Shown here piece by piece: positions 8,399 through 59,594 of a DNA stretch of 64,000 nt; within the stretch, counting starts at the first letter, position 1; every line of letters starts with the position of its first letter. A program made the translations under genes and the position numbers. Source of the DNA: Octopus vulgaris (lineage: Eukaryota). Location of the stretch: the NCBI GenBank assembly GCA_951406725.2, contig OX597820.1:59830001-59894000 (forward strand), read 5' to 3'. Below the pieces are notes generated by a model. That model was given only the letters and a program-made list of their open reading frames with translations. It searched no databases and was not told the DNA's origin.

Positions 8399-9069
8399 TA
8401 TATTCTCTCTGTCTTTTCTATCACTTCTGTGGTAGACACTGTTCCTAAGAGCTGACTGGTTTCCTGCCGATTCACTCGTCTCCTCTTTTATTACCTATAC
8501 TGCGCCCACCACCCTATTCATCCACATTAACCACTACATTTAGTTCCTTCTCTCCAGTATGTAAGAATAAAAATGGCATCTGCAGTCGTGATGCGGTAGT
8601 TGAATCATAGCAAAGCAAATTCCTTTTGTTACTGGCAACGTAAATTGCTTGTAAATTCTGTTTCCTTGGGTGTTGTTTGGTGCATCTTTTATCTTCAATC
8701 TTCCAGAGTTCTTCTCCAGAGACATCACACTGGTTGTCTTCCACATCCAAACAACTAACAGTATTAACCTGTCCTTGATTTTTGTAACACACGGCTTTGA
8801 AACGAAAGAATTATAAAACAATCAGATCGCACAGCCTGCTAGAAATAACAGCTGAATCTCCTTCACATCACGCCGACCGGACGATTCAAATAGGAAAAGA
8901 AAGAGAAATCTGAAAAAAAAAAGAAAAAGAAAAAAGAAGAAAGACAGGATAGTTTTAGCTGGAACATTTTCGAATGGAGGTATGCTCAAACAGAGTTGCT
9001 ACGAGGCTATAAAGCAATAGCAATAACTACAACAAAGCAGTAGCGATGAATGATAAGATAGAACGTCTA

Positions 9070-9507
9070 CACTGGTTTCAAATTTTGGCACAAGGCCAGC
9101 AATTTCGGGGAAGTGGGTTAGTCGATTACATTGACATCAGTGCTCAACTGGTACTTATTTTATCGACTCTGAAAGGATGAAAGGCGAAGTCGATCCTCGG
9201 TAAAATTTAAACTCAGAATGTAAAGACGGACGAAATGCCGCTAGCGATTCTTATTTCTTTACTGCCCAAAAGGGGCCACACACAGAGGGGACAAACAAGG
9301 ACAGACAAACGGATTAAGTCGATTATATCGACTCCAGTGCGTAACTGGTACATATTTAATCGACCCCGAAAGGATGAAAGGTAAAGTCGACCTCGGCGGA
9401 ATTTGAACTCAGAACGTAGTGGCAGACGAAATACCGCTAAGCATTTCGCCCAGCATGTTAACGATTCTGCCAGCTCGCCGCTAGCGATTCTGCCAGTTTG
9501 CCGCCTT
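9070..9507 (-). mobile_element. SINE family B copy with a second family B copy nested inside it
   Basis: Direct repeat gccgctagcgattct at 9237-9251 and 9477-9491 brackets the inner copy. Confidence 0.8.
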
Positions 9508-10469
9508 AAAGAGAAAGTCTATATTAATATTTGTTATGAGTGACAGAGGCAGTATTAGTTCAAAATAGCAATCTGTGTAACATACTTAAAGAAGATGCAT
9601 TGTTGAAAGCCTAATAAACTGCGGTCTCTAAATAATATCTATTCTGGACATATAGAGTACAAAAAAAAAAAAAAAAACACAGAAATATATCAACAGGAAA
9701 CGAAAACCGTCCAGCAGCAGTAGTGGCATTGCTAAATACGTATATATCCACTGGCAAACGTATTCTAAGATAAAATCTACCACCACCGATATAGTAAAAC
9801 AATGACTGAAAAAAATTACTGATGTCGCAGACAACTTCAAATAACTGAACGAACAGGATGCTGTTTAAGCATCAACTAGGTGGAGGTTAGAATTCCATCT
9901 TGACTTTACATATGCCTGCGGTCAAGATACCTTACTCTCAACGTTGTAGTCCTTTAAGAAGGAACCTTCTTATCGGAAGGAAGAGTACCCAAGAAGGCAC
10001 CATTAGATGGTTCAGCCTCTTCTGGTCTGCTGGTCTGCACTGCTTTCTCTTAATGATTTCAACCGATCTTTGCCGACTTTCTTTGACTTTCGGCGATTTA
10101 AAACAAATTTACTTTCCTTTACTGACTGCTGCAAATTTCTGTTCATTTCAAAATGTCTCATGTCATCCCCACAACTCAATTGAGTTCGCTCTATCTTTAC
10201 TGGTATTTACCGAACGATGGTATTTACTCCTAGTTGGTACTTACTCGAAGTTGTTTTCTACTCAAAGCTGATAGTCGGTCTTTCTTGAACGTGGCAACCG
10301 ATCTTTGCCATCATCGCAACAACTACGCCATTATTTTTTCTCTCTCTTCATTTGATAAACTATTTCGTGCTGGACTGCATAGTGTGGTCCTCAATTAGAC
10401 AGATGTTTGGAATATCTGGAGCATTTGCCTGAATATTTGCGTGCCAAATATCTCTTTATCTTTTTTTTA

Positions 10470-10661
10470 AACTTTTATTTCCTTCAGTCATTGGACTGTG
10501 GCCATACTGAGGCACTAATCGAAAAAAATCAACACCAGTCCTTAGTTTTTAAAGTCTGAATCTTATCCTATCAGGCTCTTTTGTCGAACCGCTTGAATCG
10601 AGAACACAAAAAAAAAATGAATACCGGTTATCAAGCGAGGTTTTTATTATTATTATTATTG

Positions 10662-10738
<77 letters not shown>

Positions 10739-10940
10739 TTGGTGAGTGGTGGGGTGCAAAGACAAACATATATTTATATGTGGATATGACTGCTTCCATA
10801 CAGTTTCCGTCGCCCGAATTCATTCACAGAGCATTGCTCAGTCTGGAGCTATTGTAGAAGACACTTGCCCAAAATGCCGGGCAGTGGGATTGAACTCGAA
10901 TTCACGTGGTTGCCAAGCGCGCTTCTTAACCACACAGCTA
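10470..10940 (-). mobile_element. SINE family A, degenerate, with an internal (TTA)n at about 10645-10738
   Basis: Reverse match to the family consensus. Confidence 0.7.
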
Positions 10941-11043
10941 TTTTTTAATTCTTAGCCAAGGCAAGAGAGGTGGTGACCGTGGGTTTTATAAATCTTCATA
11001 ACCAGATAAGAATACGATTTTTGCATCTGAAACACAACTTGAA

Positions 11044-11216
11044 CAGTAGTGGCTGTGTGGTAAGTAGCTTGCTTACCAACCACATGGTTCCGGGTTCAGT
11101 CCCACTGCGTGGTACCTTGGGCAACTGTCTTCTACTATAGCCTCGGGCCGACCAAAGCCTTGTGAGTAGATTTGGTAGACGGAAACTGAAAGAAGCCCGT
11201 CGTATATATGTATATG

Positions 11217-11260
<44 letters not shown>

Positions 11261-11466
11261 TGTGTCTGTGTTTGTCCCCCCAATATCGCTTGACAACCGA
11301 TGCTGGTGTGTTTACGTCCTCGTAACTTAGCGGTTCGGCAAAAGACACCGATACAATAAGTACTACACGCTTACAAAGAATAAGTCCTGGGGTCGATTTG
11401 CTCGGCTAAAGGCGGTGCTCCAGCATGGCCGCAGTCAAATGACTGAAACAAGTAAAAGAGTAAGAG
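11044..11466 (+). mobile_element. SINE family A (tRNA-like head, CORE-like ccttgggcaa block, internal microsatellite slot)
   Basis: gtggctgtgtggtaagtagc...gggttcagtccc (A/B-box-like), ending in the tail gactgaaacaagtaaaagag. Confidence 0.9.
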
Positions 11467-11932
11467 TATTCAAAAGTTAAGAATGCCTGCATAAAGTACA
11501 TGGGCATAGAGGGTGTCTCGGAGTTGAGAAGAAAATGCTAGTAACAACATGAATTTCGTTAAAGGAACCTAAAGACCAACAGCTGGTGTCCAACTAGGTG
11601 ATATATTAAATATACCACTCTAAATGCTGATCTGGGGGGGCTACGGACAACTATGGAATCTGTATGCGGTTGTTCGAAATGCTAGAAATAGCAGCCAAAT
11701 ATCTATCAAATCAAAATCTAGCGTCTTTAAGAAATAGATCTATGATATACATGTGTATTTTAACGCATTTATGAACTTGTTTTTACACACAAACATAGCC
11801 ACAGACACAGATACACACAAACACACGCATTCATATACAGAAATACTTATACGCATAAATTCACCAACACATATATGCACATACGCACACATGCACGGAC
11901 ATATTCACTCACTTGTACGTACGTACGTATGT

Positions 11933-11977
<45 letters not shown>

Positions 11978-12369
11978 CACACACATACACATATACACAT
12001 TATTTGCACACGTATACACATATTCTACGTGGATATACACATATGTAAATAAATGTTGGGAAAAACGAATGCTCCTGTGTGGTTGTGTTTGAGTTCATAA
12101 CATAGAAAGAAAGAGAGAAGGAAAGAGAGAGAGAGAGAGAGAGTGTGTGTGAGAGAGAAAAAGAGAGCGAATGAGAGAGGGAGAGGGAGAGAGAGAGAGA
12201 GAGCTTATTTAGGTTTGGTGGCAATGTTCTAGACAAAACACAGGTCATATTACCAAAAACGTGGTAGAAGTCTCTGTGCATTGAGCAACTTTTCTTCTCA
12301 ATGGCACCATATGGAATGTTCTAGTAATCTTGGAGATCTGATTTACTTACAATCACTTTTCCCAGGCGT

Positions 12370-13009
12370 GGCGGTTGGTTGGTAGTGGTGGTCGTCATGT
12401 GGAGGTGTTGGTGGTCGAGTTGGTAGGGGTTGATATGATAGTAATGCTAGTGTCTGTAGTGGTGGTCGTGGTGGTGGTGGTAGTAGTGTTTGGTGGTCGT
12501 CGTGGTAGTGGTGGTGGTGGGTTAATATGACAGTAATGGTAGTGTCTGGTGATGGCTGTGGTGTTTGCTGGTGTTTGGTGGTAGTGAAGGTGGTGGTGGT
12601 GGTGGTGATTAGTGGTGATGGTGGTTGTGGTGGTGGTGGTGGTAGTGGTGGTGGGTATTGATATGATAGTAATAGTAATGGTGATGTTTGGTTGTGATGG
12701 CGGTGATAGTGGTAGTGGTAGAAATGGTGATGGTGATGGTGATGGTATTTGGGGTGGGTTAGATTGGGTTGGGGTGGGGTGGGCGCCTTCAGGTTACTAT
12801 TGACGATATTGGCCTGACTATTGTTTTTTGACCGCTAATCGATGTTGGTGGTCAGTCGATTACATGTTGCAGTGCTGATCATGGTTAAGATCTTGGTGGT
12901 AGTGGTGGTGGTAATGCTGATGAGGATGGGCAGTGAAATGGTAGTGCTGGCAGCTGCAGGTAATTGTAGTAGTGGTGGCGATGGTAAGACAAATTTTATG
13001 TGAACAAGT

Positions 13010-13087
<78 letters not shown>

Positions 13088-13111
13088 GGGGAGTAGCAGC
13101 AGCAGCAGTAA

Positions 13112-13185
<74 letters not shown>

Positions 13186-13280
13186 ATGATAACAGTGGTG
13201 ATTGTGAGTGGTCGTGGTAGTGGCGATCGTCGTGGTTGTTATTGTGGTGGTGGTGCTGATCATGGTAGTGGACTGGTGAT
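12370..13280. repeat. GGT-rich low-complexity region with (GTA)n tracts at about 13010-13185
   Basis: Direct reading. Confidence 0.9.
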
Positions 13281-13663
13281 GGGAACTGCGATTGTGACGT
13301 CACATGGTAGTGGTGTAGATTGTGAAATTTGGACGTGGAGTAAAGTCTCTCACCAAATTCCACCAATATCTGATCTCTGAATCTTTGAGTATCTTTAATA
13401 CCAAGAATGTACACCAACATCCACGAACGATATAAAGTTATTCGCATCACTGTTATCAGATGTTGACGTCCAATACCACTTTTCACTAGCACCACTACCA
13501 CCTACTGGCACCACAACCACTACCAGAACTACTACCAACACTACCACAACCAGCACTACAATCAATAGCAATAACGCTATAAATATGCTACTATATCACT
13601 TCTCACTATTGCGGCCAGTATTTGTCTATTATCTCTTTCTCTTTCTCTTTCTCTTTCTCTTTT

Positions 13664-13876
13664 CTCTTTTACTTGTTTCAGTCAGTTGACTGCGGCCATG
13701 CTGGAGCACCACCTTTAGTAGAGCAAATCGACCCCAGGACTTATTCTCTGTAAGCCTAGTACTTATTGTATCGCTCTGTTTCGCCGAACCGCTAAGTTAC
13801 GGGGGCGTAAACACACCAGCATCGGTTGTCAAGCGATGTTGGAGGGACAAACACAGACACACAAATATATAGACAC

Positions 13877-13945
<69 letters not shown>

Positions 13946-14113
13946 TATACGACGGGCAGCTTTCAGTTCCCGTCTACCAAATCCACTCACAAGGATTTGG
14001 TCGGCTCGAGTCTATAGTAGAAGACACTTGCCAAAGGTACCCCGCAGTGGGAATGAACCCGGAACCATGTGGTTAGAAAGCAAGCTACTTACCACACAGC
14101 CACTCCTGCACCT
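13664..14113 (-). mobile_element. SINE family A
   Basis: Reverse complement of the family consensus, with (TA)n in the internal slot. Confidence 0.9.
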
Positions 14114-14134
14114 ATCAATATAATTTATTAATAT

Positions 14135-14518
14135 AAGGGAGCAAGTTGCAGAATCGTTAGTACTCCGGGCGAAATGCTTAGCAGTATTTCGTCTGCCGCT
14201 ACATTCTGAGTTCAAATTCGCCGAGGTCGACGTTGCCTTTCATCCTTTCGGGGTCGATTAAATAAGTACCAGTTACGCACTGGGGACGATATTATCGACT
14301 TAATCCGTTTGTCCTCTCTGTGTTTAGCCCCTTGTGGGTAGTAAAGAAATAGGTATTTCATCTGTCTTTACGTTCTGAGTTCAAATACCACCGAGGTCGA
14401 CTTTGCCTTTCATCCTTTCAGGGTCGATAAATTAAGTACCAGTTGCGTACTGGGGTAGAGCTAATCGACTGACCCCCTCCTCCAAAATTTCGGGCCTTAT
14501 ACCTAGAGTAGAAAAGAA
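14135..14518 (+). mobile_element. SINE family B, dimer-like
   Basis: Two successive ttctgagttcaaat..ccgaggtcgac..tgcctttcatcctttc..ggtcgat..taagtaccagtt blocks. Confidence 0.8.
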
Positions 14519-14542
14519 TATTTGTCTATTATCAAAATAATT

Positions 14543-14680
14543 AGGCGCTGGAGTGGCTGTGTGGTAAGTAGCTTGCTTAGAAACCACATGGTTCTGGTTT
14601 CATTCCAACTGCGTGGCACCTTGGGCAAGTGTCTTCTACTATAGCCTCGGGCCGACCAAAGCCTTGTGAGTAGATTTGGT

Positions 14681-14715
<35 letters not shown>

Positions 14716-14930
14716 TGAGTATGTTTGTGTGTCTGTGTTTGTCCCCCCAACATCGCTTGACAACCGATGCTGGTGCGTTTACGTCCCCCGTAACCTAGCG
14801 GTTCGGTAAGAGAGACCGATAAAATAAGCACTAGACTTACAAAGAATAAGTCCTGGGCTCAATTTGCTCGACTAAAGGCGGTGCTCCAGCATGGCCGCAG
14901 TCAAATGACTGAAACAAATAAAAGAATAAA
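14543..14930 (+). mobile_element. SINE family A
   Basis: Consensus match. Confidence 0.9.
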
Positions 14931-15224
14931 AAATATATATAAGGTGGCAAGCTGGCAGAAATGTTAGCACACCCGAAAAAAATACTTAACGGCATTTCGT
15001 TTGTCTTTATGTTCTGAGTTCAAATTCCGCTGAGGTCCACTTTGCTTCATCCTTTCGGTGTTGATAAAATAATTACCTGTCAAGCTCTGGGGGTCGATAT
15101 TGCTGGCGTTGTGCTAAAATTTGAAACCAATATAATTTATTTATATGAGAGCACAATGATGTAGCAGAATCGCTGTGACTAACTTGAGTTTTCATCTTTA
15201 CAGGGTCGATAAAATATGCACTAG

Positions 15225-15530
15225 GTAGTGGTTACCGCAACGGGCTCACTATTATGAGGTAGTGAGTTCGATTCTCAGACCGGGCTGTATGTTGGTTTCT
15301 TGAGCAAGACACTATATTTTGCTCCTGTTCACTCAGCTGTTGTGACGTCACTGGTACCAAGCTGTGTCGGCCTTGCTTTTCCGTTGGATAACATCGATGG
15401 CGTGAATAAGGAAGGCTGGTATGCATGGGCGACTGCTGGTCTTCCATAAACAACTTTGCCCGAATTTGTGCCTCGGGGGTGGGGGGAATTTCTAGGTACA
15501 ATCCCATGACCGAATGGTGCCTTTACTCTT
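15225..15530 (+). mobile_element. tRNA-derived SINE, family C-related subfamily
   Basis: tagtggtta...gagttcgattctcagaccggg...cttgagcaagacact. A related copy lies on the minus strand at 40350-40640. Confidence 0.7.
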
Positions 15531-16911
15531 TTGATCTAATCTATAAAAATGCGCTCCTTGTAAAGTTTTGGCGCTATGTCTATCTTATAAATCAAAATAA
15601 TTAATTATATAATTAAATTTTTTTATGAACCAAGAGAAAAGTCAGTGTGAATATACAATTGTATTGTATAATGCCGTGCATGCATATTAGTACAAACATT
15701 CAAGCATAATTTCTTCAACACTGAAATTATTGCTACATGATGAAGGTTGCGAAACGGCTGTAACCTTAAAGATGACAAGTAGTTAAATATATTCTCATAC
15801 GTCCTGACTTTTTACGATTTATGTACGACTTGAGAAATGATTTCACCGCTCGGATCGTCTAGATTTCAGCCACTTGGTCACTCTATATTACACTTCTTTG
15901 TAGAGGATTACTATGTGGACTGTTAGCCGAGTCCGTTAGAGGAGCTTTCTGCGATAGCCATACGATTCTCTGATTCCATATTTTACATACATACACACAT
16001 ACATACATACATACATACATACATACATACATACATACATACATACATACATGTATGTGTGTGTGTGTGTGTGTGTGTGAACGCACGTGGGCTGGTGGTT
16101 GGGGTGTTGCACTCACGATCGGGAGATAGTGTTTCAATTCTGGGACCTATTGCGCATCGTGTTCTTGAGCAAAACACTTCATTTCACGTTGCTCTAGCTC
16201 ACTCAGCTGCGACAGACTGGCCTCCCAGTCTAGAGAGTATGTTGACTTGGTAGCTTTGTCAGCGGGGTGGCATCATTTGAAAGCTGAAACGATGCGAATT
16301 GTGACCACCGAAGTATGACACCAGATGTGTGGTGAATACACACACACACACACACGTATTGTTATATTCGGGATGGCCTTTTGGGGTGGGGTTGGAATAA
16401 ACATTCGCGCTCTAGTGCGTGTGTTTATTTGGCAGAAAAGTAAAAAATGACCATCCCGAAATGTAATATGGTTCAACATACGATATCAAATCAGGAATCA
16501 TGCAAAACAAATACATAAACGTATATATATATATATAATTATATCATTTTGTATGTAATGTGTGTGTGTGAGTGTGAAAACCACAAATCACAGAAAAAGA
16601 TTGTATCAGACTATATATATTAATCAAAGAGCTGGGTTGCTTCTCTTCGATTAGCAAAGGCCTAACTGTTTAAAATATGTGATTAAAAAAAAAAAACGAG
16701 ATACAAAGCTAGAAAAATAGATGTAAAATATATATAACAATAGAATGGTTTGGAAAGTTTTCTGGTGATAGTCTACGTTGGAGTAAATAAGGGGGAATGA
16801 TTATATGCTGAAAAGAAATGATGATTGCAGGATAGTAGGAAAATAATGTTTAGGTATAGGGGATAAATGTATGGTAAAAACGGTGAAAGTTGTGGTTCAC
16901 TAGCGAAATAA

Positions 16912-17120
16912 TAATCCTTTCTACTATAGACACAAGGCCTGAAATTTGGGGAGAGGGATTAGATCGACCCCAGTTCGCGACTGGTACTTAATTTATCGAC
17001 CCCAAAAGGACGAAAGGCAAAGTCGACCTCGGCAGAATTAGAACTCAGAACGTAAAGACAGACGAAATACTGCTAAACATTTCGCCCGGCGTGCTAACGA
17101 TTCTGCCAGCTTGCTGCCTT
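16912..17120 (-). mobile_element. SINE family B
   Basis: Reverse consensus match. Confidence 0.8.
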
Positions 17121-18779
17121 GCTAGTGAGATGGTAATAATACTAAAACATGTACAGAGTTATTTCCCGTACTTTCTGAAAAATGCAAGATGTAATAGTCA
17201 TTGACTAATACTTTTTATTTCCTTTCTTGCAAGTGCATAATTATTTCCAATTAGCTTTTTAAATATTCCTTGCACTAAACTGTTGTATACCAGGAAGGCG
17301 ATGCCTTTGAACCATTATTCTCTTAACGATTCTATTCTCCTATGCCAACTGATGAGCAATAATGTACATTTACTTGGTGTTTCTTTCATCACTACTTCAA
17401 TAAATACATTCGAGTCTATGACACACTCTCTCTCTCTGATGAGGTCATAAAAAAATTGAGATCGAAATACGTCTGGATTTGTTACTTGCAGAGAAAGACA
17501 CCAAAAGAAAGAAAGAAAGAAAGAAAGAAGGAAAGAAAGCAAGAAAGAAAAAGAAAAAGGAGAATGTAAAATTGGTTTGTGCTTTGCTTTCGTTTTGATT
17601 CCTTCTTGTCGCGTACCGGTTTTCACTTTGGCTTAAATGTACTACGACTAATTTTAACTTTCAGTAAAGAAATAATATAATTGACGCTAACATGTTTAAT
17701 GATAATTGCTTTTCTGAGTATCTGCACCTGGAAAGTCCTTCTCCAAGTCTCAGACCTGGGCAAAATTGGGCAAGATGTTTATGTAGAGACCCAATTTTAG
17801 CCCATGCATGCAATTCTCTCTTCACGCCACCTATATTTTCCACAAGAAAGACACAGCTGGTACAGGTTGACATCATTAAAACGCAGAAACACAAAACCAT
17901 TGTAAAATATACTATTTGGCACTCTTAAACTTCCACCAGTCCACCGCTTTGGACTGGTCCTTTAATTTAATCGATCGGAAGAATAAATAGCAAAGCTGAC
18001 CTCAGCAGGACTCGAACTAAGCGCACAAAGTCGAAACACCTAACGCAAAGCTGTTCTATCCGACGCTCTAACGACTCTGCCGGTTATCCCCCTTATATTT
18101 AAATTAGAAAACCATCTGTGGAATAAAGAAAGTAATCATAAAATCACGTAGCTAAACGAAAAATTCTGGTCCAAAAAGATAGGGGAAATAACTCATGGAT
18201 TTGAATTAATTAAAACTTGAAAATAGTGAGAAGTCTGATATTTGGTAGTCACCGAGTGAATAACAAATGAATGTCAGTGAAAATGTTAGTGAATATCACT
18301 TTTCGTATTGCGTGGGGGACATTCATGCACAATAACAATAACAACAAAATCAACTTCGTGTCACAGGATTTCTTATATCAATACTGTTAGGATTTTTTAA
18401 AAGGGATTTGACTGAGTTTGTGTATGTGCTTCTGCTTTCCTGTATGTTGTAGACATAAATACACACACACGTGTGTGTGTGTGTGTGTATAGATACACAA
18501 ATATGTGTGCGTGTGTGTGTGTATACATATATATATATATAATTATATACACATACATATATATGTATGTATGTATGTATGTGCTTATGTGTGTGTATGT
18601 GTGTGTGTGTGTGTGTGTGTATGTGTGTGTGTGTTGTGCGTGTTATAGCGTATATTTGTGCGTTTGTATTAGCAAGAGTGAGAGAGCGGGAAGGGAAAAA
18701 TATTTGCTTTAAATATCTCTTACAGACTGTCAGATTGAGTAAGATAAATGGCACCTTGTTTTTGTTGACGTTGGTTATG

Positions 18780-18985
18780 ATGGTGGGTGTGATGGTGGAG
18801 GTGGTGGTGGTGGTGGTGGTGGTGGTGGTGGTGGTGGTGGTGGTGGTGTTGGTGGTGGTGGTGTTGGTGGTGGTGGTGTTGGTGGTGTTGGTGTTGGTGG
18901 TGGTGGTGTTGGTGTTGGTGGTGGTGGTGGTCGTCGTTCTGGTCGTGGTCGTGGTGATGGTGGCGGTGGTGATGGTGGTACTGTT
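18780..18985. repeat. (GGT)n / (GGTGTT)n microsatellite
   Basis: Direct reading. Confidence 0.95.
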
Positions 18986-19479
18986 GAAAGTAATGATAGT
19001 AGTGATGATGTGTTGTGTAACCCCAGGCCAACCAGGAGCAAGCCTAGTGTCAAAGATGTTTCAGTCACGACCATTCAAGACTTACATTCTCCAACGTGTT
19101 TTTTCTTCCTTAACAGTGTCATCTGAGAGGACGATTTTACTGCTGTTTCTAACACATCAATCGACAACGTAGCTTCTCTCTGATTCATCGTCATGGCGTT
19201 GTTGTTGTTGTTGAGTAATCTCCAATGTAATCCATGACTGAATAGTCCTAAAGGATGGTGGAAGTCGGCCGAACGACGACGCGGAACCCATAGATCCATT
19301 TTCTCAGTTATGCCATATTTATTTCTCCCAGCTTTCTTCAAAGTTCCGACATATAGTAACGAATCACATGGTCGTACGAAATGGACGACCTGGGTATGTT
19401 GTGCTAGCTCCGCTCTCAGATCTATTTCTATATGTACATAAATTACGATGGTGATACTAACGGAGGCGAACAAAATAAA

Positions 19480-21330
19480 CTGAAAGCACGACAGTTGTTG
19501 CCCCTAGCAGCTATCGTCAATAGAGGGCGTTCTATTGCAGTGTTTTCTGCCTTTTATGTTGCAGTTATTTGTGTATCTGTGTGTTACTTAACTTTTTTCT
19601 GAAGAGAGCGGAAGAGATAGTATTGGTAGAATGGTGTGTGGTAGTGCCGTAGAGAGTGGTATAAGTGTTCGGATGTTTGGAAGTTTTGTTGTTTTTTCTC
19701 TTCCTGTAGTAACATGGACCGTAAGGGAACGAAGCTTATTGCAGCAATAAACTGTGCTTCTCATATATCCAAGCAGTCTTTCACTTTTAATATTATTTGT
19801 CTTGTAATATAGGTGGTCTGTGGGTGTTTGCAGGATGCGCAGTACACAGCTTTATGATGTTTGTAATTTCTTTGCGGCTTGCAGAGAGATTAGAATTCCG
19901 CGTAAACTTACACTAGATGGATCTAATGTATTGTTTGTGCAGTATTGTTATTTCTGTTGGCCTAACGCGGTATTTGTGATGGCTTAAAAATATGTCTGTG
20001 CATCGTTTTAGTTTCTTTACCGTCTTTTATTTCTTGCAAATATTTTTTTCTATTCTGTGCTTGCGGTATACTCTTTTACTTGTTTCAGTCATTTGAATGC
20101 GGCCATGCTGGAGCCCCGCCTTTAGTCAAGCAAATCGAACCCAGGACTTATTCTTTGTAAGCCTAGTACTTATTATATCGGTCTCTTTTGCCAAACCGCT
20201 AAGTTGCGGGGACGTAAACACACCAGCATCGGTTGTCAAGCGATGTTGGGGGGGAGGACAAACACAGACACACAAACACAAACAGATATATACGACGGAC
20301 TTCTTTCAGTTTCCGTCTACCAAATCCACTCACAAGGCTTTGGTCGGCCCGAGGCTATAGAATAAGACACTTGCCGAAGGTGCCACGCACTGAACCCGGA
20401 ACCATGTGGTTGGTAAGCAAGCTACTTACCACACAGCCACTCCTGCGCCTATATGTTGTTGAGTGTGGTGACTGGTGATATTTTATGTATTCTGGCGTTG
20501 CTGGTAAGATGGAAGACTAGATTTTATAGGTGCTGCTTAAGCCTGTTGGTGTGGGACCCAGATTTCTAGGCGATTTATGTTGGATCGGAGTAGTTATGCA
20601 GATGTGTTTGAAGAATAGTGAGGACATGAGTATAATATCATCTGCGTACAAAGCTGTCTGTATATTTTGGAGACGTATTTGGTCGTGTAAATTGTAGGTT
20701 GAAGAGAATAGTTTAGGGGACAGATCCCTGTGGTATTCTACTGAAGAAATTTCAGGTTTTTCATATTTTGTTCCTATACATCATACAAACTTGTCAACCT
20801 GACAGATCGTTTGCGAACCAACGTTTTAAGTTAACGGTGTTTTTTTCCTTTTGATGTGCAGATGCCAGGAAATGAAATCGAAAGCTTTTGCTGATGTCCA
20901 CAGTAGTTAGTGTAGTGCGTGTATGAAAGGTTTTTTGATGTTGAAAACATATTTTCTGTGAAGGTTTATGAGTAGTGTAATCGTTGGGAGTGATCTGAAT
21001 CCGTGATATGATTTGAAAAGAGTGGTGTATAGGTTTATTGACGTCAAGAATTTGCTTTTGTAAGACATTCGAGAACGCGAACAAGTGTGTGACGGAGCTA
21101 CATCATGTTAATTCACTTCAGGTTTTGACGAACTTTAGAAGTATAATTTGGCACAAGTTCCAGATTCTGAGAATTTGGCAATGTTGGTCCGAGCAGTTGT
21201 AGAAGTTGGTGAGGGATAGAGAGAGTCTTTCAAATCTTAGATGTTTTAGGTTTATGCTTGTAACTTTGTCTAGCACTGAAGTTATTGAGGCCGCAGATTC
21301 CTCTATTGTTTTACGAATGTCTAATTAAAC
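19480..21330 (-). mobile_element. old LINE (Jockey/I-like) ORF2 relic interrupted by a SINE
   Basis: Minus-strand RT motifs in order: TVDIS/KAFD (about 20880-20900), PQGSV (20721-20733), IQTALYADDIIL (about 20630-20663). Many stops. The clade assignment is tentative. Confidence 0.7.
20071..20450 (-). mobile_element. SINE family A inserted in the LINE relic
   Basis: Reverse consensus match. Confidence 0.9.
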
Positions 21331-21334
21331 GAAG

Positions 21335-21650
21335 GTGGGGGCACATGGCCTAGTGGTTAGAGCAGTGGACTCACAGTCGAGGGATCGCGGGATCGCGGGT
21401 TCGAATCTCAGACTGGAAAATGTGCGTGTCTATTAACGAAAACACCTAAGCTCCACGCGGCTCCAGCAGAAGGTAATGGCGAACTTCTGCTGACTCTTTC
21501 GCCACAACTTTCTCTCACTCTTTCCTCCTGCATCTTGCAGCTCACCTGCAACAGACTGGCGTCCCGTCCAGGTGGGGAACCTATACGTCAAGGAAACACG
21601 GAAACCGGCCCTTATGAGCCAGGCGTGGCTCGAGAAGGAACAAACAATAA
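21335..21650 (+). mobile_element. tRNA-derived SINE, family C-related
   Basis: tggcctagtggttagagcagtggactc...gggttcgaatctc head, flanked by the direct repeat aaacgaag. Confidence 0.85.
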
Positions 21651-22034
21651 AACGAAGTATTAAAACTGTGGTCAATGTGGAAGATACATATTTTTCCGTT
21701 TCGTGTTCCTGTCTTCCTTAGTTTGAGGTTTGTAATTGTGATATGGGGTGTAGTGTGACGTTCGTTGCTGTTGTTAATGGTGATGTTGTCGCCGAGGTTG
21801 TTATTGTGGTTTTGCCGGTGTTAGTGTAGTAATGATGGTATCACTTCTGGCAGCATTGATAAAGATGAGGTGGTGGTGATGGTGGTGGTGGTGGTGGTGG
21901 TGTCAGCGGCAGTGGTTGTGGTGTTGGTGGTGGCGGTGGTAATGATAGTGATGGTGGTGGTGATGGTGATGGTGGTGGTGGTGGTGGTTTTGGTGCTGAC
22001 TTTTCCGATGGCACGCAGGTGCCAGTGGGTAGTT

Positions 22035-22350
22035 GAATGACCAAATCCAAGCTTCTCTTCTAGTTCCTCAAGAGTTACGATGTGATTTTGTTCCGCCGGG
22101 GTTTCCAGGACGTCCTCGTCGAACCCTACAGATCTTCCAGGACGAAGCTCGACTTCTAGGCTGTAGTTTCCGGGTCAGAATTTCTGGAACCACTGTTGAC
22201 ACTGGCTTATGCTTATTGTCCGATCCCCATATATTGCATTAATATTCCTTACCATTTCTGTTGCGTTGTTACCTTTTTTGAACTCATAAAGCAAAATATG
22301 CCGAATATTATTATTTTGTTATTATATGATCGAATGTCACGCATCCACTT
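22035..22350 (-). mobile_element. mariner transposase N-terminal (HTH) relic
   Basis: [27 protein letters not shown]...QWFQKF*PGNYSLEVELRPGRSV. Confidence 0.8.
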
Positions 22351-22355
22351 CCAAG

Positions 22356-22468
<113 letters not shown>

Positions 22469-22745
22469 CTATTAATATATGACGTTATATGCCAGATTGA
22501 AGCAAAGAACAGAGGACTCAATACTAAGTAAAGGAAATATATTTCAATTTGAGAAATTCATTGTAATATACCATTCTAACAACATACTTTTGTGTGGTCT
22601 TAATCCAATTTTGTCAAACGACCACACCCTCGCAAGAAAACTCGGAGTAATTATTAAATTAATAAGTATATGAACTTAGATAAGTTCTGCCAGTGTTGAC
22701 GCAGGCTGTGCCTAACTCAATATCGCCCGTTCGCCCATCTGGCAA

Positions 22746-22780
<35 letters not shown>

Positions 22781-23080
22781 TGTATGTATGTATGTATGTA
22801 TGTATGTACGTACGTATGTATGTATGTATGTATGTATGTATGTATGTATGTATGTATGTATGTATATGTGTGCGCGTGTGTATATGCGTGTGTATTCTGG
22901 GGAGTGACATTCCTACTTAGCGATAATAATTCTTTAGCTACACTACATATCAGCAAACTTGCAGATTATGTTACTTGTGATGCTAAATGTAACAGTAAAA
23001 AACATTGTTTTCTACTGACAGCTAATAGTCAACGTTAAGTGGATGACACGTCAAATAATGGATGAAAACACGCAAAGGCA

Positions 23081-23151
<71 letters not shown>

Positions 23152-23540
23152 ATGCAGACGCACACATACAAGTACGTGCAAAGGCACTTATGCACACAAA
23201 CACATCTATGTATACATAGAACCCAAATCCTAGGCACGTGAAGACTTTGCAGCAAAGTTTTAATTAAACTTAATTAAACTTAATTAATAAAGTTAGTGTT
23301 TAATCCTTCCTAGAATTAGGATTGAATGAATATGGTGATATCTAAGGTATGTTTGTTCCCAAACAAAACTTGTTTTAGTACTGTTGACACCACCGGATTG
23401 AATGGTACTTCCCAGGTGTCGAAACCATAGTGATATCCGTGGGGCAGCTAACGATGGAGGTATGTTAGAATGGCTGTTATTGTATGTGCGGAAAAGTTTT
23501 ATAACACTTTTATAAAACTATATGTTATATATATATATAT

Positions 23541-23704
23541 AGCCACTACACACATTTTTTTTCTCTCCTTGTTTTTTTCCGTGTCCCTTTCTGTAGAAGA
23601 GCGTAGGCTCGAAACGTAAGACTTTTTCTATTCCTGAGCGTTATACTAATACATCTGTTTTTGTACACCACCTGTCTTCGTCTTTTGTTTTTTTCCTAAA
23701 CTCT

Positions 23705-23709
<5 letters not shown>
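23541..23709 (+). mobile_element. short repeat family H1 carrying a hammerhead-like motif, lodged in (TA)n
   Basis: cttt-ctgtaga-a-gagc-gtag-gctc-gaaacgta at 23587-23618, with (TA)n on both sides. Several other copies occur in the window. Confidence 0.7.
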
Positions 23710-23755
<46 letters not shown>

Positions 23756-23756
23756 C

Positions 23757-24147
23757 AGGCGCAGGAGTGGCTGTGTGGTAAGTAGCTTGTTTACCAACCT
23801 CATGGTTCCGGGTTCAGTCCCACTGCGTGGCACTTTGGGCAAGTGTCTTCTACTATAGCCTCGGGCCGACCAAAGCCTTGTGAGTGGATTTGGTAGACGG
23901 AAACTGAAAGAAGCCCGTCGTATATACATATATATATACGTGTGTGTGTTTGTGTGAGTGTGTTTGTCCCCCTAGCATTGCTTGACAACCGATGCTGGTG
24001 TGTTTATGTCCCCGTTCGGCAAAAGAGACCGATAGAATAAGTACTGGGCTTACAAAAGAATAAGTCCCGGGGTCGAGTTGCTGAATTAAAGGCGGTGCTC
24101 CAGCATGGCCGCAGTCAAATGACTGAAACAAGTAAAAGAGTAAAGAG
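23757..24147 (+). mobile_element. SINE family A
   Basis: Consensus match. Confidence 0.9.
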
Positions 24148-24230
24148 TATATATATGTGTGTGTGTGTGTGTGTGTATAAAACTATAAACTATATATATT
24201 TATATATATATACACGCACATCCCTATATT

Positions 24231-24445
24231 GTCCTTTCTACTATAGACACAAGGCTTGACATTTTGGAGGAGGGGGTCTAGTCGATTTCATCGACCTTAC
24301 AACTTGTCTGATACTTATTTTATTCATACTGAAAGATAAAAGGCAAATATGACCTCGGCATAATTTAAAATCAGAATGTAAAGACTGACGAAATGCCACG
24401 GAGCATTTCGTCCGGTGTGCTAACGATTCCGCCAGCTCTCCACCA
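24231..24445 (-). mobile_element. SINE family B, degenerate
   Basis: Reverse consensus match. Confidence 0.7.
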
Positions 24446-24914
24446 TGCGCATACATATATAATCTCATCTAGTGTGATTCAGACATGCAAATATTAATAT
24501 TAATATAAATAGTGCTGCTACACAACATACCTATGGATTTTGTATAGTGCCCTAGAATCATCAGCGAGGGAAAAGGGTTTTTTTTATTATACAGGAGCTG
24601 TAGTAGTAAGTTTGATGTAGGTAGGTTTTTTCTTTTCTTTTCTTTTTTTCTTTCACATTACATTTTAAAATTCTCTCACACGGAATATATGTGCAGTAAA
24701 TAGGAAACGGGTGTAATCACTCTCATTCTTAAATATATTGTTGATTCTATACACAACTATAGCTCTATCAACTGTGTCACTTAGCATAGTTGTTTCTTAA
24801 TATATATCTCAATGTATGCTTATATTGTAGAAACATTGAATAAAAAATACATAATGTAGAGCTTATAACATAAACGCCATGCTTGATCGCTGAATCCACA
24901 AGGTTTTTTAAATT

Positions 24915-25068
24915 ATCTCTTTGTTTATTTTCTCTTTTTCCTTTCTGTTGAAGAGCGTAGACTCGAAACGTAAAAAGACTTTCTCACTTTCCCGAGCGCC
25001 AAATTAATACACCAGCTTGTTGTTCATACACCTGTCATCGTCTTTTATTTTTCTGTAAATCTCAATTA
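24915..25068 (+). mobile_element. family H1 copy (hammerhead-like motif 24941-24976)
   Basis: cttt-ctgttga-agagcgtagactc-gaaacgta-aaaag plus the shared tail cctgtcatcgtctttt. Confidence 0.65.
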
Positions 25069-28155: not shown

Positions 28156-28167
28156 ATAAATTAGAAC

Positions 28168-28285
28168 GCTTTCAGCACTTAGGTTTCCCAAGCAGTCATC
28201 CATCTAAGTACTAACTAGGCTCGATGTTGCTTAACTTCGGTGATCGAACGAGAACCGGTGCTTTCAACGTGATATGGCTGTAAGC
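28168..28285 (-). pseudogene. 5S rRNA pseudogene (full length, 118 nt)
   Basis: Minus strand reads GCTTACAGCCATATCACGTTGAAAGCACCGGTTCTCGTTCGATCACCGAAGTTAAGCAACATCGAGCCTAGTTAGTACTTAGATGGATGACTGCTTGGGAAACCTAAGTGCTGAAAGC. It has transitions in box C and helices and no T4 terminator. Confidence 0.9.
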
Positions 28286-58003: not shown

Positions 58004-58266
58004 TAGCTACGTTAGAGGTTAAAATAACCGTCTAATGGATAGAAGTATCCATTATACTACCGGTATATTACCTATGTTTAACCATGGGCATACATATGCA
58101 AGCATATTATGCTCATGAATTATAGGTAAAGAAGAGGATAACAATGAATTTATCAAGAATCAAAATTTAAAGAAAACAGAAAATGAAGAAATATTGATGA
58201 ACAACAATTGACTTGCATCAATTTTTTTTATTTATTAATTATTTGAATTAATAAATAATATATATA

Positions 58267-58491
58267 CTTTATTTAAAAGCAGCAGAAATAATATAACAAA
58301 AGCTGTTACTCAACTTTCACGTTCCTGTTCGTCAGATAATTTTGTTAAAACTGTCCGACAAACAGGAACGTGAAACTCTGAGTAACAGCTTTTGTTATAT
58401 TTCTGCTGCTTTTAAATAAAGCACATTACTCTACCTCTGGTATTTGAGTACTCCTTTTTTCCACCTTGTTTCACATTTATGTGCTTACTCC

Positions 58492-58493
<2 letters not shown>
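58267..58493 (+). mobile_element. family H2 element, short and older copy with an inverted pair of degenerate hammerheads
   Basis: Imperfect palindrome at 58267-58421, then the tail attactctacc...ttactccgg and (TA)n. Confidence 0.8.
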
Positions 58494-58542
<49 letters not shown>

Positions 58543-58790
58543 TATATATATGTATTATATATATGTATTATATATATGTATTATATATGTATATATATAT
58601 ATAAATATATATATATATATGTATTATATATATGTATACACACACACACGCGCGCGCGCGCATATATTACGTATGTATATACTTATATAATAATATATCA
58701 CATATATAAATTTATATGATACACACACACACATGCATATATATATATATATATATACTTTATTTTAAGCAGCAGAAAATTCAACAAAAT

Positions 58791-58828
58791 CTGTTACTCT
58801 GAGTTTCTCGTTGCCGTTCATCAGACAG
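58791..58828 (-). ncRNA. minimal type I hammerhead ribozyme motif (left arm of the palindrome)
   Basis: Exact mirror of 59453-59490. Confidence 0.75.
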
Positions 58829-59452
58829 TTTTTGCTAGAATGGAACATATATATTAATTCAATCTATACTCTTACAAACGCTACACCTTTAAAAAGAAAT
58901 GGACTTGTTTGATTGGCCCTTTAGAAAAAACGGTCAATCTTCGAGCGATAAACAAAAAGGTCAAAAATATATGTATATATATATAAAAAACTTATAAAAA
59001 TTATAAAATCCGAGGAAAAAACCGAGGAAAAAACCTATTGCCGTTAATGAAGACAGTACAAATTAATGCATAGAAATTAAACCTGTTATAAATACTGCAA
59101 TACATATAAATATGTATTGCAGTATTTATAACAGGTTTAATTAAACCTGTTATAAATACTGCAATACATATAAATATGTATTGCAGTATTTATAACAGGT
59201 TTAATTTCTATGCATTAATTTGTACTGTCTTCATTAACGGCAATAGGTTTTTTCCTCGGTTTTTTCCTCGGATTTTATAATTTTTATAAGTTTTTTATAT
59301 ATATATACATATATTTTTGACCTTTTTGTTTATCGCTCGAAGATTGACCGTTTTTTCTAAAGGGCCAATCAAACAAGTCCATTTCTTTTTAAAGGTGTAG
59401 CGTTTGTAAGAGTATAGATTGAATTAATATATATGTTCCATTCTAGCAAAAA

Positions 59453-59490
59453 CTGTCTGATGAACGGCAACGAGAAACTCAGAGTAACAG
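59453..59490 (+). ncRNA. minimal type I hammerhead ribozyme motif (right arm)
   Basis: CUGU-CUGAUGA-aCG-GCAA-CGa-GAA-ACUCAGAGU-A-ACAG. Stem I can extend with aaaa/tttt, and stem II is short. Confidence 0.75.
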
Positions 59491-59594
59491 ATTTTGTTGA
59501 ATTTTCTGCTGCTTAAAATAAAGCATATTACTCTACCACTGGTATTTGAGTACTCTTTTTTCCACCTTGTTTCACATTTATGTGTTTACTCCGG

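What the first reader, a model, noticed from the sequence alone, without database searches (positions are those of the whole stretch)
58267..58493. Second, older copy of the same ribozyme element, with an independent and shorter fold-back
Seen: it has the same left boundary (ctttatt..aagcagcag), the same 3' tail ending ttactccgg-(TA)n and an inverted hammerhead pair. However, the turn point lies about 10 nt 5' of the ribozyme, giving arms of about 75 bp, and the arms have diverged. Its stem II variant ends GGAA-CGT, and the minus copy keeps CTGACGA. Inference: the inverted arm stops at the same position in two independent copies while the turn point varies. This points to a programmed insertion mechanism rather than random repair, and the 265-bp proximity suggests local hopping or a hot spot.
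Basis: partly seen in the sequence, partly recalled or inferred. Interest (0 to 1): 0.7.

Follow-up and report, generated by a model that had tools for sequence, protein, structure and literature searches.

The report
Two-armed stub of Penelope retrotransposon
This 227-base hairpin is one of many thousands of cut-down ends of a Penelope-type jumping gene lying in TA repeats; across the genome its arms start at two fixed points in equal numbers and often stop near one spot, which likely records the enzyme copying its RNA from both cut DNA strands at once.

Summary
The feature is the 3' end (hammerhead ribozyme plus 72-nt tail) of a Hydra-clade Penelope-like retrotransposon. A full-length copy elsewhere in the genome encodes a 727-aa RT/GIY-YIG protein. 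Genome-wide, 13,064 arms carry one core motif. Of these, 5,684 run into the tail and 5,668 end at AATAAAG directly in TA repeats, 37 nt past the predicted cleavage site. In a sample, 66 of 75 inverted arms end there. The short copy belongs to an older subfamily, so it is neither a deletion product nor a local hop of its long neighbour. Turn points vary, but many fall 8-14 nt upstream of the ribozyme (3,550 arms at -150, 1,705 at -158), as this copy's does. The tail-less arm is often the longer one, which fold-back cannot make; two independent reverse transcripts likely can. That the stop marks the RNA's 5' end is inferred; a cap-G test failed. Inverted arms, tails and TA targeting are published PLE traits. 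This scan reported the same two-arm pattern for other families. Verdict: new family of a known kind, with useful mechanistic statistics.

The parts
58258..58266 (.). Left (TA)n target remnant
   Evidence: sequence
58267..58348 (-). Inverted tail-less arm; outer end at element position -71 (G of AATAAAG), inner end at about -150 (TTAA)
58303..58339 (-). Decayed type I hammerhead motif of the inverted arm (core CTGACGA; stems I and III damaged)
   Evidence: layout compared by eye with the Hydra HHR table
58345..58348 (.). Junction of the two arms at TTAA (AA shared by both arms)
58347..58421 (+). Direct arm, 5'-truncated pLTR, from -145 to -71
58351..58388 (+). Type I hammerhead motif, old-subfamily type (core decayed to CCGACAA; predicted cleavage after 58384)
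58422..58493 (+). 72-nt tail present on one arm only, ending TTACTCCGG (second fixed end, position 0)
58494..58757 (.). TA-rich microsatellite tract between the two insertions (264 nt)
58758..59594 (+). Neighbouring, independent insertion of the young subfamily of the same element (arms to about -426, 99% identical)

Best explanation
The feature is a 5'-truncated, two-armed insertion of an older subfamily of a Hydra-clade Penelope-like retrotransposon in a TA repeat, likely made when the element's enzyme nicked both DNA strands and primed two reverse transcripts at two fixed RNA sites about 71 nt apart. Shown: family membership, the two fixed ends in 1:1 numbers, independent arm lengths, a sharp excess of inner ends 8-14 nt upstream of the hammerhead, and short overlaps at most junctions. 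Inferred steps: (1) RNA starts near -154 in the upstream pLTR; (2) the GIY-YIG domain nicks (TA)n on both strands; (3) each 3' end primes on sense RNA, one at position 0 (tailed arm) and one at -71 (tail-less arm), helped by 2-4 nt of TA pairing; (4) both cDNAs run off at or near the RNA 5' end; (5) their ends are joined by microhomology, often at a short palindrome (TTAA here, CTAG in the young subfamily). Later mutation, partly at CpG, made the arms diverge. The neighbour is a later independent insertion in the same TA tract.
For: Full-length copy L099 has pLTR-ORF-pLTR plus an inverted arm and a 727-aa ORF with the Hydra motifs conserved across 118 aligned proteins. Arms genome-wide: 13,064 total, 5,684 tailed, 5,668 ending AATAAAG then TA; of 30 arms picked by the shared core, all 30 end in the tail or at -71 to -66. 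Of 97 tail-anchored insertions, 75 have an inverted arm and 66 of those end at or near -71. Of 63 scored pairs, the tail-less arm is longer by more than 10 nt in 22 and the tailed arm in 11; 18 are symmetric within 3 nt. Short tail-less arms also occur with no partner (e.g. L103, L108, L111, L116). 42 of 79 arms that reach -149 stop by -155, against 1 of 37 in the next 7 nt; genome-wide 3,550 at -150, 1,705 at -158, 1,500 at -169. Arms crossing that site a second time in an upstream pLTR never stop there (0 of 25; Fisher p=2e-7). In vitro, the Anolis PLE protein cleaves and extends both strands and starts at two sites bounding the tail (PMC11167929).
Against: No RNA 5' end was measured; the runs held were contigs. 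No extra G (cap copy) at -155: 26 hits for G (with A excluded at -156) against 113 for A, and no clear G excess in held loci. Ends spread over -149 to -155 rather than one base. None of the 25 read-through arms that reach -149 ends there, so full-length copies need a second (read-through or circular) template class, which is an added assumption. 22 of 97 tailed arms show no inverted partner and 9 have other outer ends. 18 of 63 pairs are symmetric, as fold-back would also give. Asymmetry could partly come from later deletion in palindromes.
Confidence: 0.65

Rival explanations
1. Fold-back or self-priming: one cDNA (or an antisense RNA) snaps back at a short palindrome and is copied to a fixed stop, as proposed for head-to-head Penelope repeats by Arkhipova et al. 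2013.
For: Palindromic junctions recur (CTAG, TTAA, AATT); 18 of 63 pairs are symmetric; arms share private variants, including ACAGGAAC in both arms of this copy; published hypothesis (PMC3846280, passages).
Against: In 22 of 63 pairs the tail-less arm holds element sequence that the tailed arm lacks, by up to about 1 kb (L031, L034), while the tailed arm holds a tail the other lacks. Partnerless tail-less arms end at the same base.
Confidence: 0.15
2. Two-site priming as in the best explanation, but the inner ends cluster because reverse transcriptase stalls at an RNA structure or bound protein just past the ribozyme, not because the RNA begins there.
For: No cap-G excess; ends spread over 7 nt; read-through arms show that RNA extending 5' of -154 exists.
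Against: A sequence-encoded stall should act again on the second pass, but 0 of 25 arms stop there. The edge coincides with an initiator-like motif (CCATTCT young, CTATTTT old; consensus recalled).
Confidence: 0.13
3. Short hairpins, this one included, are long palindromic insertions shortened later by central deletion.
For: Long arms exist (up to 3.5 kb) and the long neighbour's centre is rearranged; long palindromes are unstable (general knowledge).
Against: The short copy cannot derive from its neighbour (different subfamily). Deletion gives no reason for a sharp edge at -150 to -154 in two subfamilies, nor for partnerless arms ending there.
Confidence: 0.05
4. The short hairpin is a self-standing non-autonomous element (SINE- or retrozyme-like) copied as a unit, with local hopping.
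For: Identical GCTAGC junctions recur in several copies; copies cluster about 3-8 fold above random.
Against: Junctions mostly differ between copies; identical ones occur in different subfamilies (L011 pair); close neighbours differ in subfamily; some short copies end CCGG-TC, the start of the next unit, pointing to a template that continued into the ORF side; no tandem monomer arrays were seen in the sampled loci.
Confidence: 0.02

Closest known systems
Hydra clade of Penelope-like elements (Craig et al. 2021, PMC8557442; abstract, passages, section 11 and parts of supplementary file 1 read), nearest listed Hydra-1_Obim, Hydra-1_Ajap, Hydra-2_Amil
   Same: Single ORF with RWK, DKT, CxCX5C linker, C-terminal GIY-YIG, CxxC and CxH; (TA)n target; type I hammerhead. 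[quoted passage not shown] Inverted 5'-truncated copy and one-sided tail are described as general PLE traits.
   Different: Not Hydra-1_Obim: different ribozyme and protein sequence by eye. Unit is 3,352 nt against 'generally <3 kb'; tail is 71-72 nt against 30-40; older subfamilies carry CCGAYGA rather than CUGAUGA.
PAc, Poseidon of Anolis carolinensis (Frangieh et al. 2024, PMC11167929; main text parts 1-2 of 4 read, supplements not read)
   Same: Two internal RT start sites bounding the tail; both strands cleaved and extended; AT-rich target; uncleaved RNA is the main template.
   Different: There the tail lies inside the ORF and priming is described as non-homologous; here the tail ends 19 nt before the first ATG of the ORF and both sites have 2-4 nt of TA match. 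The parts read do not link the two sites to head-to-head arms or to run-off at the RNA start.
Penelope of Adineta vaga and Drosophila virilis (PMC3846280 and PMC2377424, passages read)
   Same: [quoted passage not shown]
   Different: Different clade; head-to-head repeats there are explained by self-priming, which the arm asymmetry here argues against.
Non-LTR retrozymes (Li et al. 2026, 10.64898/2026.07.22.740005, part 1 of 5 read; Cervera and de la Pena 2014, PMC4209133, passages)
   Same: Type I hammerhead with a tiny palindromic stem III; dual motifs on opposite strands 100-700 bp apart were already noted for truncated PLEs.
   Different: Retrozymes are tandem non-coding monomers; this is the truncated end of a protein-coding element.
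Twin priming of human L1 (recalled, no paper read)
   Same: Two target strands prime two cDNAs that are joined by microhomology, giving an inversion.
   Different: In L1 the second primer lands at variable internal sites and the arms do not overlap; here both start sites are fixed and the arms copy the same stretch.

Membership tests
EN+ Penelope-like element | Single ORF with RT core | tested here: met
   727-aa ORF in L099; FDxxxFYPSI, GxYDGAE and YRDDG near-invariant in 118 aligned proteins; same motifs in published Hydra proteins by eye. Pfam, NCBIfam and PDB sequence searches of the ORF itself gave no hit.
EN+ Penelope-like element | GIY-YIG endonuclease C-terminal to RT | tested here: met
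   Y599, Y614, G616, R625, E689, N702 invariant in 118 of 118; homolog P0002 passes Pfam GIY-YIG (26.2 bits, cutoff 22.6; 1 of 6 homologs scanned) on a stretch that aligns to about residues 607-633.
EN+ Penelope-like element | Partial tandem (pLTR), inverted 5'-truncated copy, one-sided tail | tested here: met
   L099 and L102; 70 pLTR-ORF junctions genome-wide; 75 of 97 with an inverted arm. The tail is 71-72 nt, longer than the 30-40 described.
EN+ Penelope-like element | Hammerhead motif in the pLTR | tested here: met
   Core and stem layout match the Hydra HHR table. Rfam negative; the monomer does not fold as a hammerhead in ViennaRNA, as expected for motifs proposed to act as dimers.
EN+ Penelope-like element | Ribozyme self-cleavage; RT and endonuclease activity | not testable with these tools
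   needs in vitro assays
Hydra clade | RWK motif and DKG changed to DKT | tested here: met
   RWK 53-55, DKT 129-131 (definitions)
Hydra clade | CxCX5C linker; CxxC and CxH around conserved E and N; no CCHH inside the GIY-YIG core | tested here: met
   C578-C580-C586 (C580 is F in L099, C in L102 and in 117 of 118 rows), C683/C686, C711/H713; no Cys between Y599 and Y614 in L099
Hydra clade | (TA)n insertion preference | tested here: met
   90 of 97 tail ends scored as followed by TA repeat or TC plus TA
Hydra clade | Placement in the Hydra clade on an RT tree | not tested
   reference proteins seen only as supplement text and compared by eye
Non-LTR retrozyme | Tandem non-coding monomers, no ORF | tested here: not met
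   sequence continues into an intact ORF in long copies

The most novel reading that the evidence does not exclude
Penelope head-to-head insertions are made by obligatory twin priming: one RNP nicks both strands of (TA)n and starts two cDNAs at two fixed sites on uncleaved sense RNA. Most start in the 5' copy of the pLTR and run off the transcript's start 13 nt upstream of the ribozyme, so the commonest product is a roughly 230-bp hairpin that records the transcription start. This would replace the published self-priming model and tie the two in vitro start sites to the inverted repeat.
Probability: 0.5. Interest if true: 0.62.

Novelty: new member of a known kind. Interest (0 to 1): 0.38.

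Why it matters
The inverted arm, one-sided tail and TA targeting are known, so the copy itself is ordinary. How PLEs make these structures is still called open in PMC8557442 and PMC11167929. An intact 727-aa ORF and a predicted RNA start make the model testable with the existing in vitro PLE assay and 5' RACE. Few arms end at the cleavage site (3 of 148 at -106/-107), which fits uncleaved RNA being the usual template.

Tried and rejected
DNA similarity search of the own genome found nothing because common words are skipped; patterns were used instead. Rfam found no hammerhead. Pfam, NCBIfam and PDB searches of the ORF or its profile gave no significant hit. A structure prediction was submitted and had not finished at the last collection, so there is no fold evidence. 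Expression: no RNA holder listed on record; 14 holders are guessed to be RNA and all are contigs. Four laid runs cover the element but cannot show a start or strand; not used as evidence. Cap-G test at -155 was negative. A peak of ends at the ribozyme cleavage site was looked for and not found. No DPE-like match was seen by eye downstream of the proposed start (consensus recalled). Deletion of the long neighbour and local hopping were rejected by subfamily. Look-up of earlier findings by sequence gave none. Literature searches for a published twin-priming or run-off model of PLEs listed none; the library lacks most subscription papers, Arkhipova 2006 and Evgen'ev and Arkhipova 2005 were not read, and the supplements of PMC11167929 and the bioRxiv preprint were not seen.

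Full report
Coordinates. Element positions count back from the last G of TTACTCCGG (0) in one real genomic monomer, L099 (3,352 nt). Hammerhead stem I starts at -141 and the predicted cleavage follows -108. The G of AATAAAG is -71.

Observation. The hairpin is real. It has an 82-nt inverted arm (58267-58348), a 75-nt direct arm (58347-58421), a 72-nt tail (58422-58493) and TA repeats on both sides. The arms match at 65 of 75 columns. The arm end is 37 nt from the cleavage site. The long neighbour starts 264 nt later.

What the family is. An exact tail pattern has 5,419 hits in the 2.8-Gb own genome and none when read backwards. Long copies run upstream into an ORF. L099 holds pLTR, a 727-aa ORF, 3' UTR, pLTR and an inverted arm. 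The protein has 1,764 relatives at E<=1e-30 among 7,998 scored candidates. In an alignment of it and 117 of the 120 listed relatives, RWK, DKT, YRDDG, CxCX5C, the GIY-YIG residues, CxxC and CRH are conserved. These are the features Craig et al. give for the Hydra clade (PMC8557442 section 11). Published Hydra proteins and ribozyme layouts match by eye, but the family is not Hydra-1_Obim. Pfam does not recognise the ORF; one of six homologs scanned passes GIY-YIG on the aligned stretch.

The fixed arm end. The first 100 listed tail hits gave 97 insertions; three second hits in the same insertion were dropped, and one duplicated pair, L020/L023, was kept. Of these, 63 have a scorable inverted arm ending near -71 and 3 have a mini arm ending there. 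Nine have another outer end (by eye, about six eroded and three clean alternatives) and 22 have no inverted arm. Among the 66, 59 end at -71, 3 at -70 to -66 and 4 at -72 to -80. Genome-wide, 13,064 arms carry the shared core; 5,684 continue into the tail and 5,668 pass straight into TA. The remaining 13% were not classified genome-wide. In 30 arms picked by the core, all ended in the tail or at -71 to -66 (the script misfiled one mutated tail, L164). At both ends the element continues with TA-like letters (C-ATAT at -70, TCTA at +1), and 9 of 97 tails carry the extra TC. This suggests short pairing between target and RNA (inference).

Independence of the short copy. An old-subfamily pattern has 701 exact hits. 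The right arm matches five such copies at 67-69 of 71 and the neighbour at 58 of 72. The subfamily core is CCGACGA in 18 of 30. The copy's CCGACAA and CTGACGA are each one CpG transition from it, so neither arm likely kept an ancestral active core. It is not a deletion product of the neighbour.

Turn points. Inner ends range from -54 to beyond -4,000, but 25 of 63 tail-less arms and 17 of 85 tailed arms stop at -149 to -155 (microhomology can shift these ends by a few nt). Of 79 arms reaching -149, 42 stop in that zone; 1 of 37 stops in the next 7 nt. Genome-wide counts for the young and middle subfamilies agree: 3,550 at -150, 1,705 at -158, 1,500 at -169. This copy's turn is of that class. 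Position -154 is the A of CCATTCT, and the old subfamily has CTATTTT at the same place; both fit the initiator consensus YYANWYY (recalled). I examined 30 of 70 arms that run from the ORF side into an upstream pLTR (three pairs share an insertion). Of the 25 that reach -149, none stops in the zone (Fisher p=2e-7). This argues against a simple stall, but it also shows that long copies come from templates extending further 5'. A cap-G test, prompted by earlier scan notes, was negative, so the RNA start remains an inference.

Fold-back or two cDNAs. Among 63 pairs, 18 are symmetric within 3 nt, the tail-less arm is longer by more than 10 nt in 22, and the tailed arm in 11. When each arm holds sequence the other lacks, neither can be a copy of the other. 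Junctions overlap by 1-6 nt in 36, by more in 8, are blunt in 7 and carry extra bases in 12. Short tail-less arms also occur alone. Frangieh et al. showed in vitro that a PLE protein extends both strands and starts at two sites bounding the tail. Arkhipova et al. 2013 proposed self-priming for such repeats. The counts here favour two independently primed cDNAs. Later deletion inside palindromes could add asymmetry and was not excluded.

Proximity. Within 1.4 kb of the 97 insertions (245 kb) six had an extra independent copy. These are five events, since L025/L026 is one pair; a seventh hit, in L047, was dropped as part of its own arm. Expected is 0.75-2.2 for an assumed 8,500-25,000 insertions; farther flanks (266 kb) held 2. 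At those densities 7-59 pairs this close are expected by chance alone. Close neighbours differ in subfamily (L011, L025/L026, L071). A modest TA-repeat hot spot fits; local hopping does not.

Novelty. Inverted copies, tails, (TA)n bias and ribozymes are published PLE and Hydra traits. The family was not among the Hydra families listed in the supplement read. Six literature searches listed no paper giving a twin-priming or run-off model for PLEs, within the limits stated. Earlier AI notes of this scan reached the same readings for other families in this and other genomes. I had stated my reading before opening them, and they are not independent support. Verdict: an ordinary copy of a new Hydra-clade family; the interest lies in the family's end statistics.

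Noticed in passing
window 59077-59204: The centre of the long neighbour is an exact direct duplication of a 64-nt near-perfect hairpin (loop not flipped), absent from other copies examined; suggests repeated template switching or slippage at the join.
   Followed up: partly
window 28167-28285 (-): 5S rRNA gene or pseudogene, 94.8 bits.
   Followed up: no
window 58355-58361; family-wide: Middle and old subfamilies carry CCGATGA or CCGACGA in the ribozyme core, only the youngest CTGATGA; activity of the C variant is untested.
   Followed up: partly
window 58415-58420: AATAAA just inside the -71 end could be a polyadenylation signal (motif recalled), which would end transcripts within the tail.
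   Followed up: no
L030, L098, L141, L147, L158: Arms that begin inside the 5' part of the ORF, or jump from the ORF start back into the pLTR; rare alternative starts or template jumps.
   Followed up: no
L118/L119 (G000:C1:115922312-115922734): Two tail-less arms face tail-to-tail with an inverted duplicate of the flank between them.
   Followed up: no
L102 (G000:C1:64213500-64223400): Two full-length arms in inverted orientation, 99.8% identical over 3.5 kb; one ORF open, the other frameshifted.
   Followed up: no
L027, L050, L091 (and L018 by eye): Mini inverted arms of about 10 nt, joined at TTTAAA, still ending at -71.
   Followed up: partly
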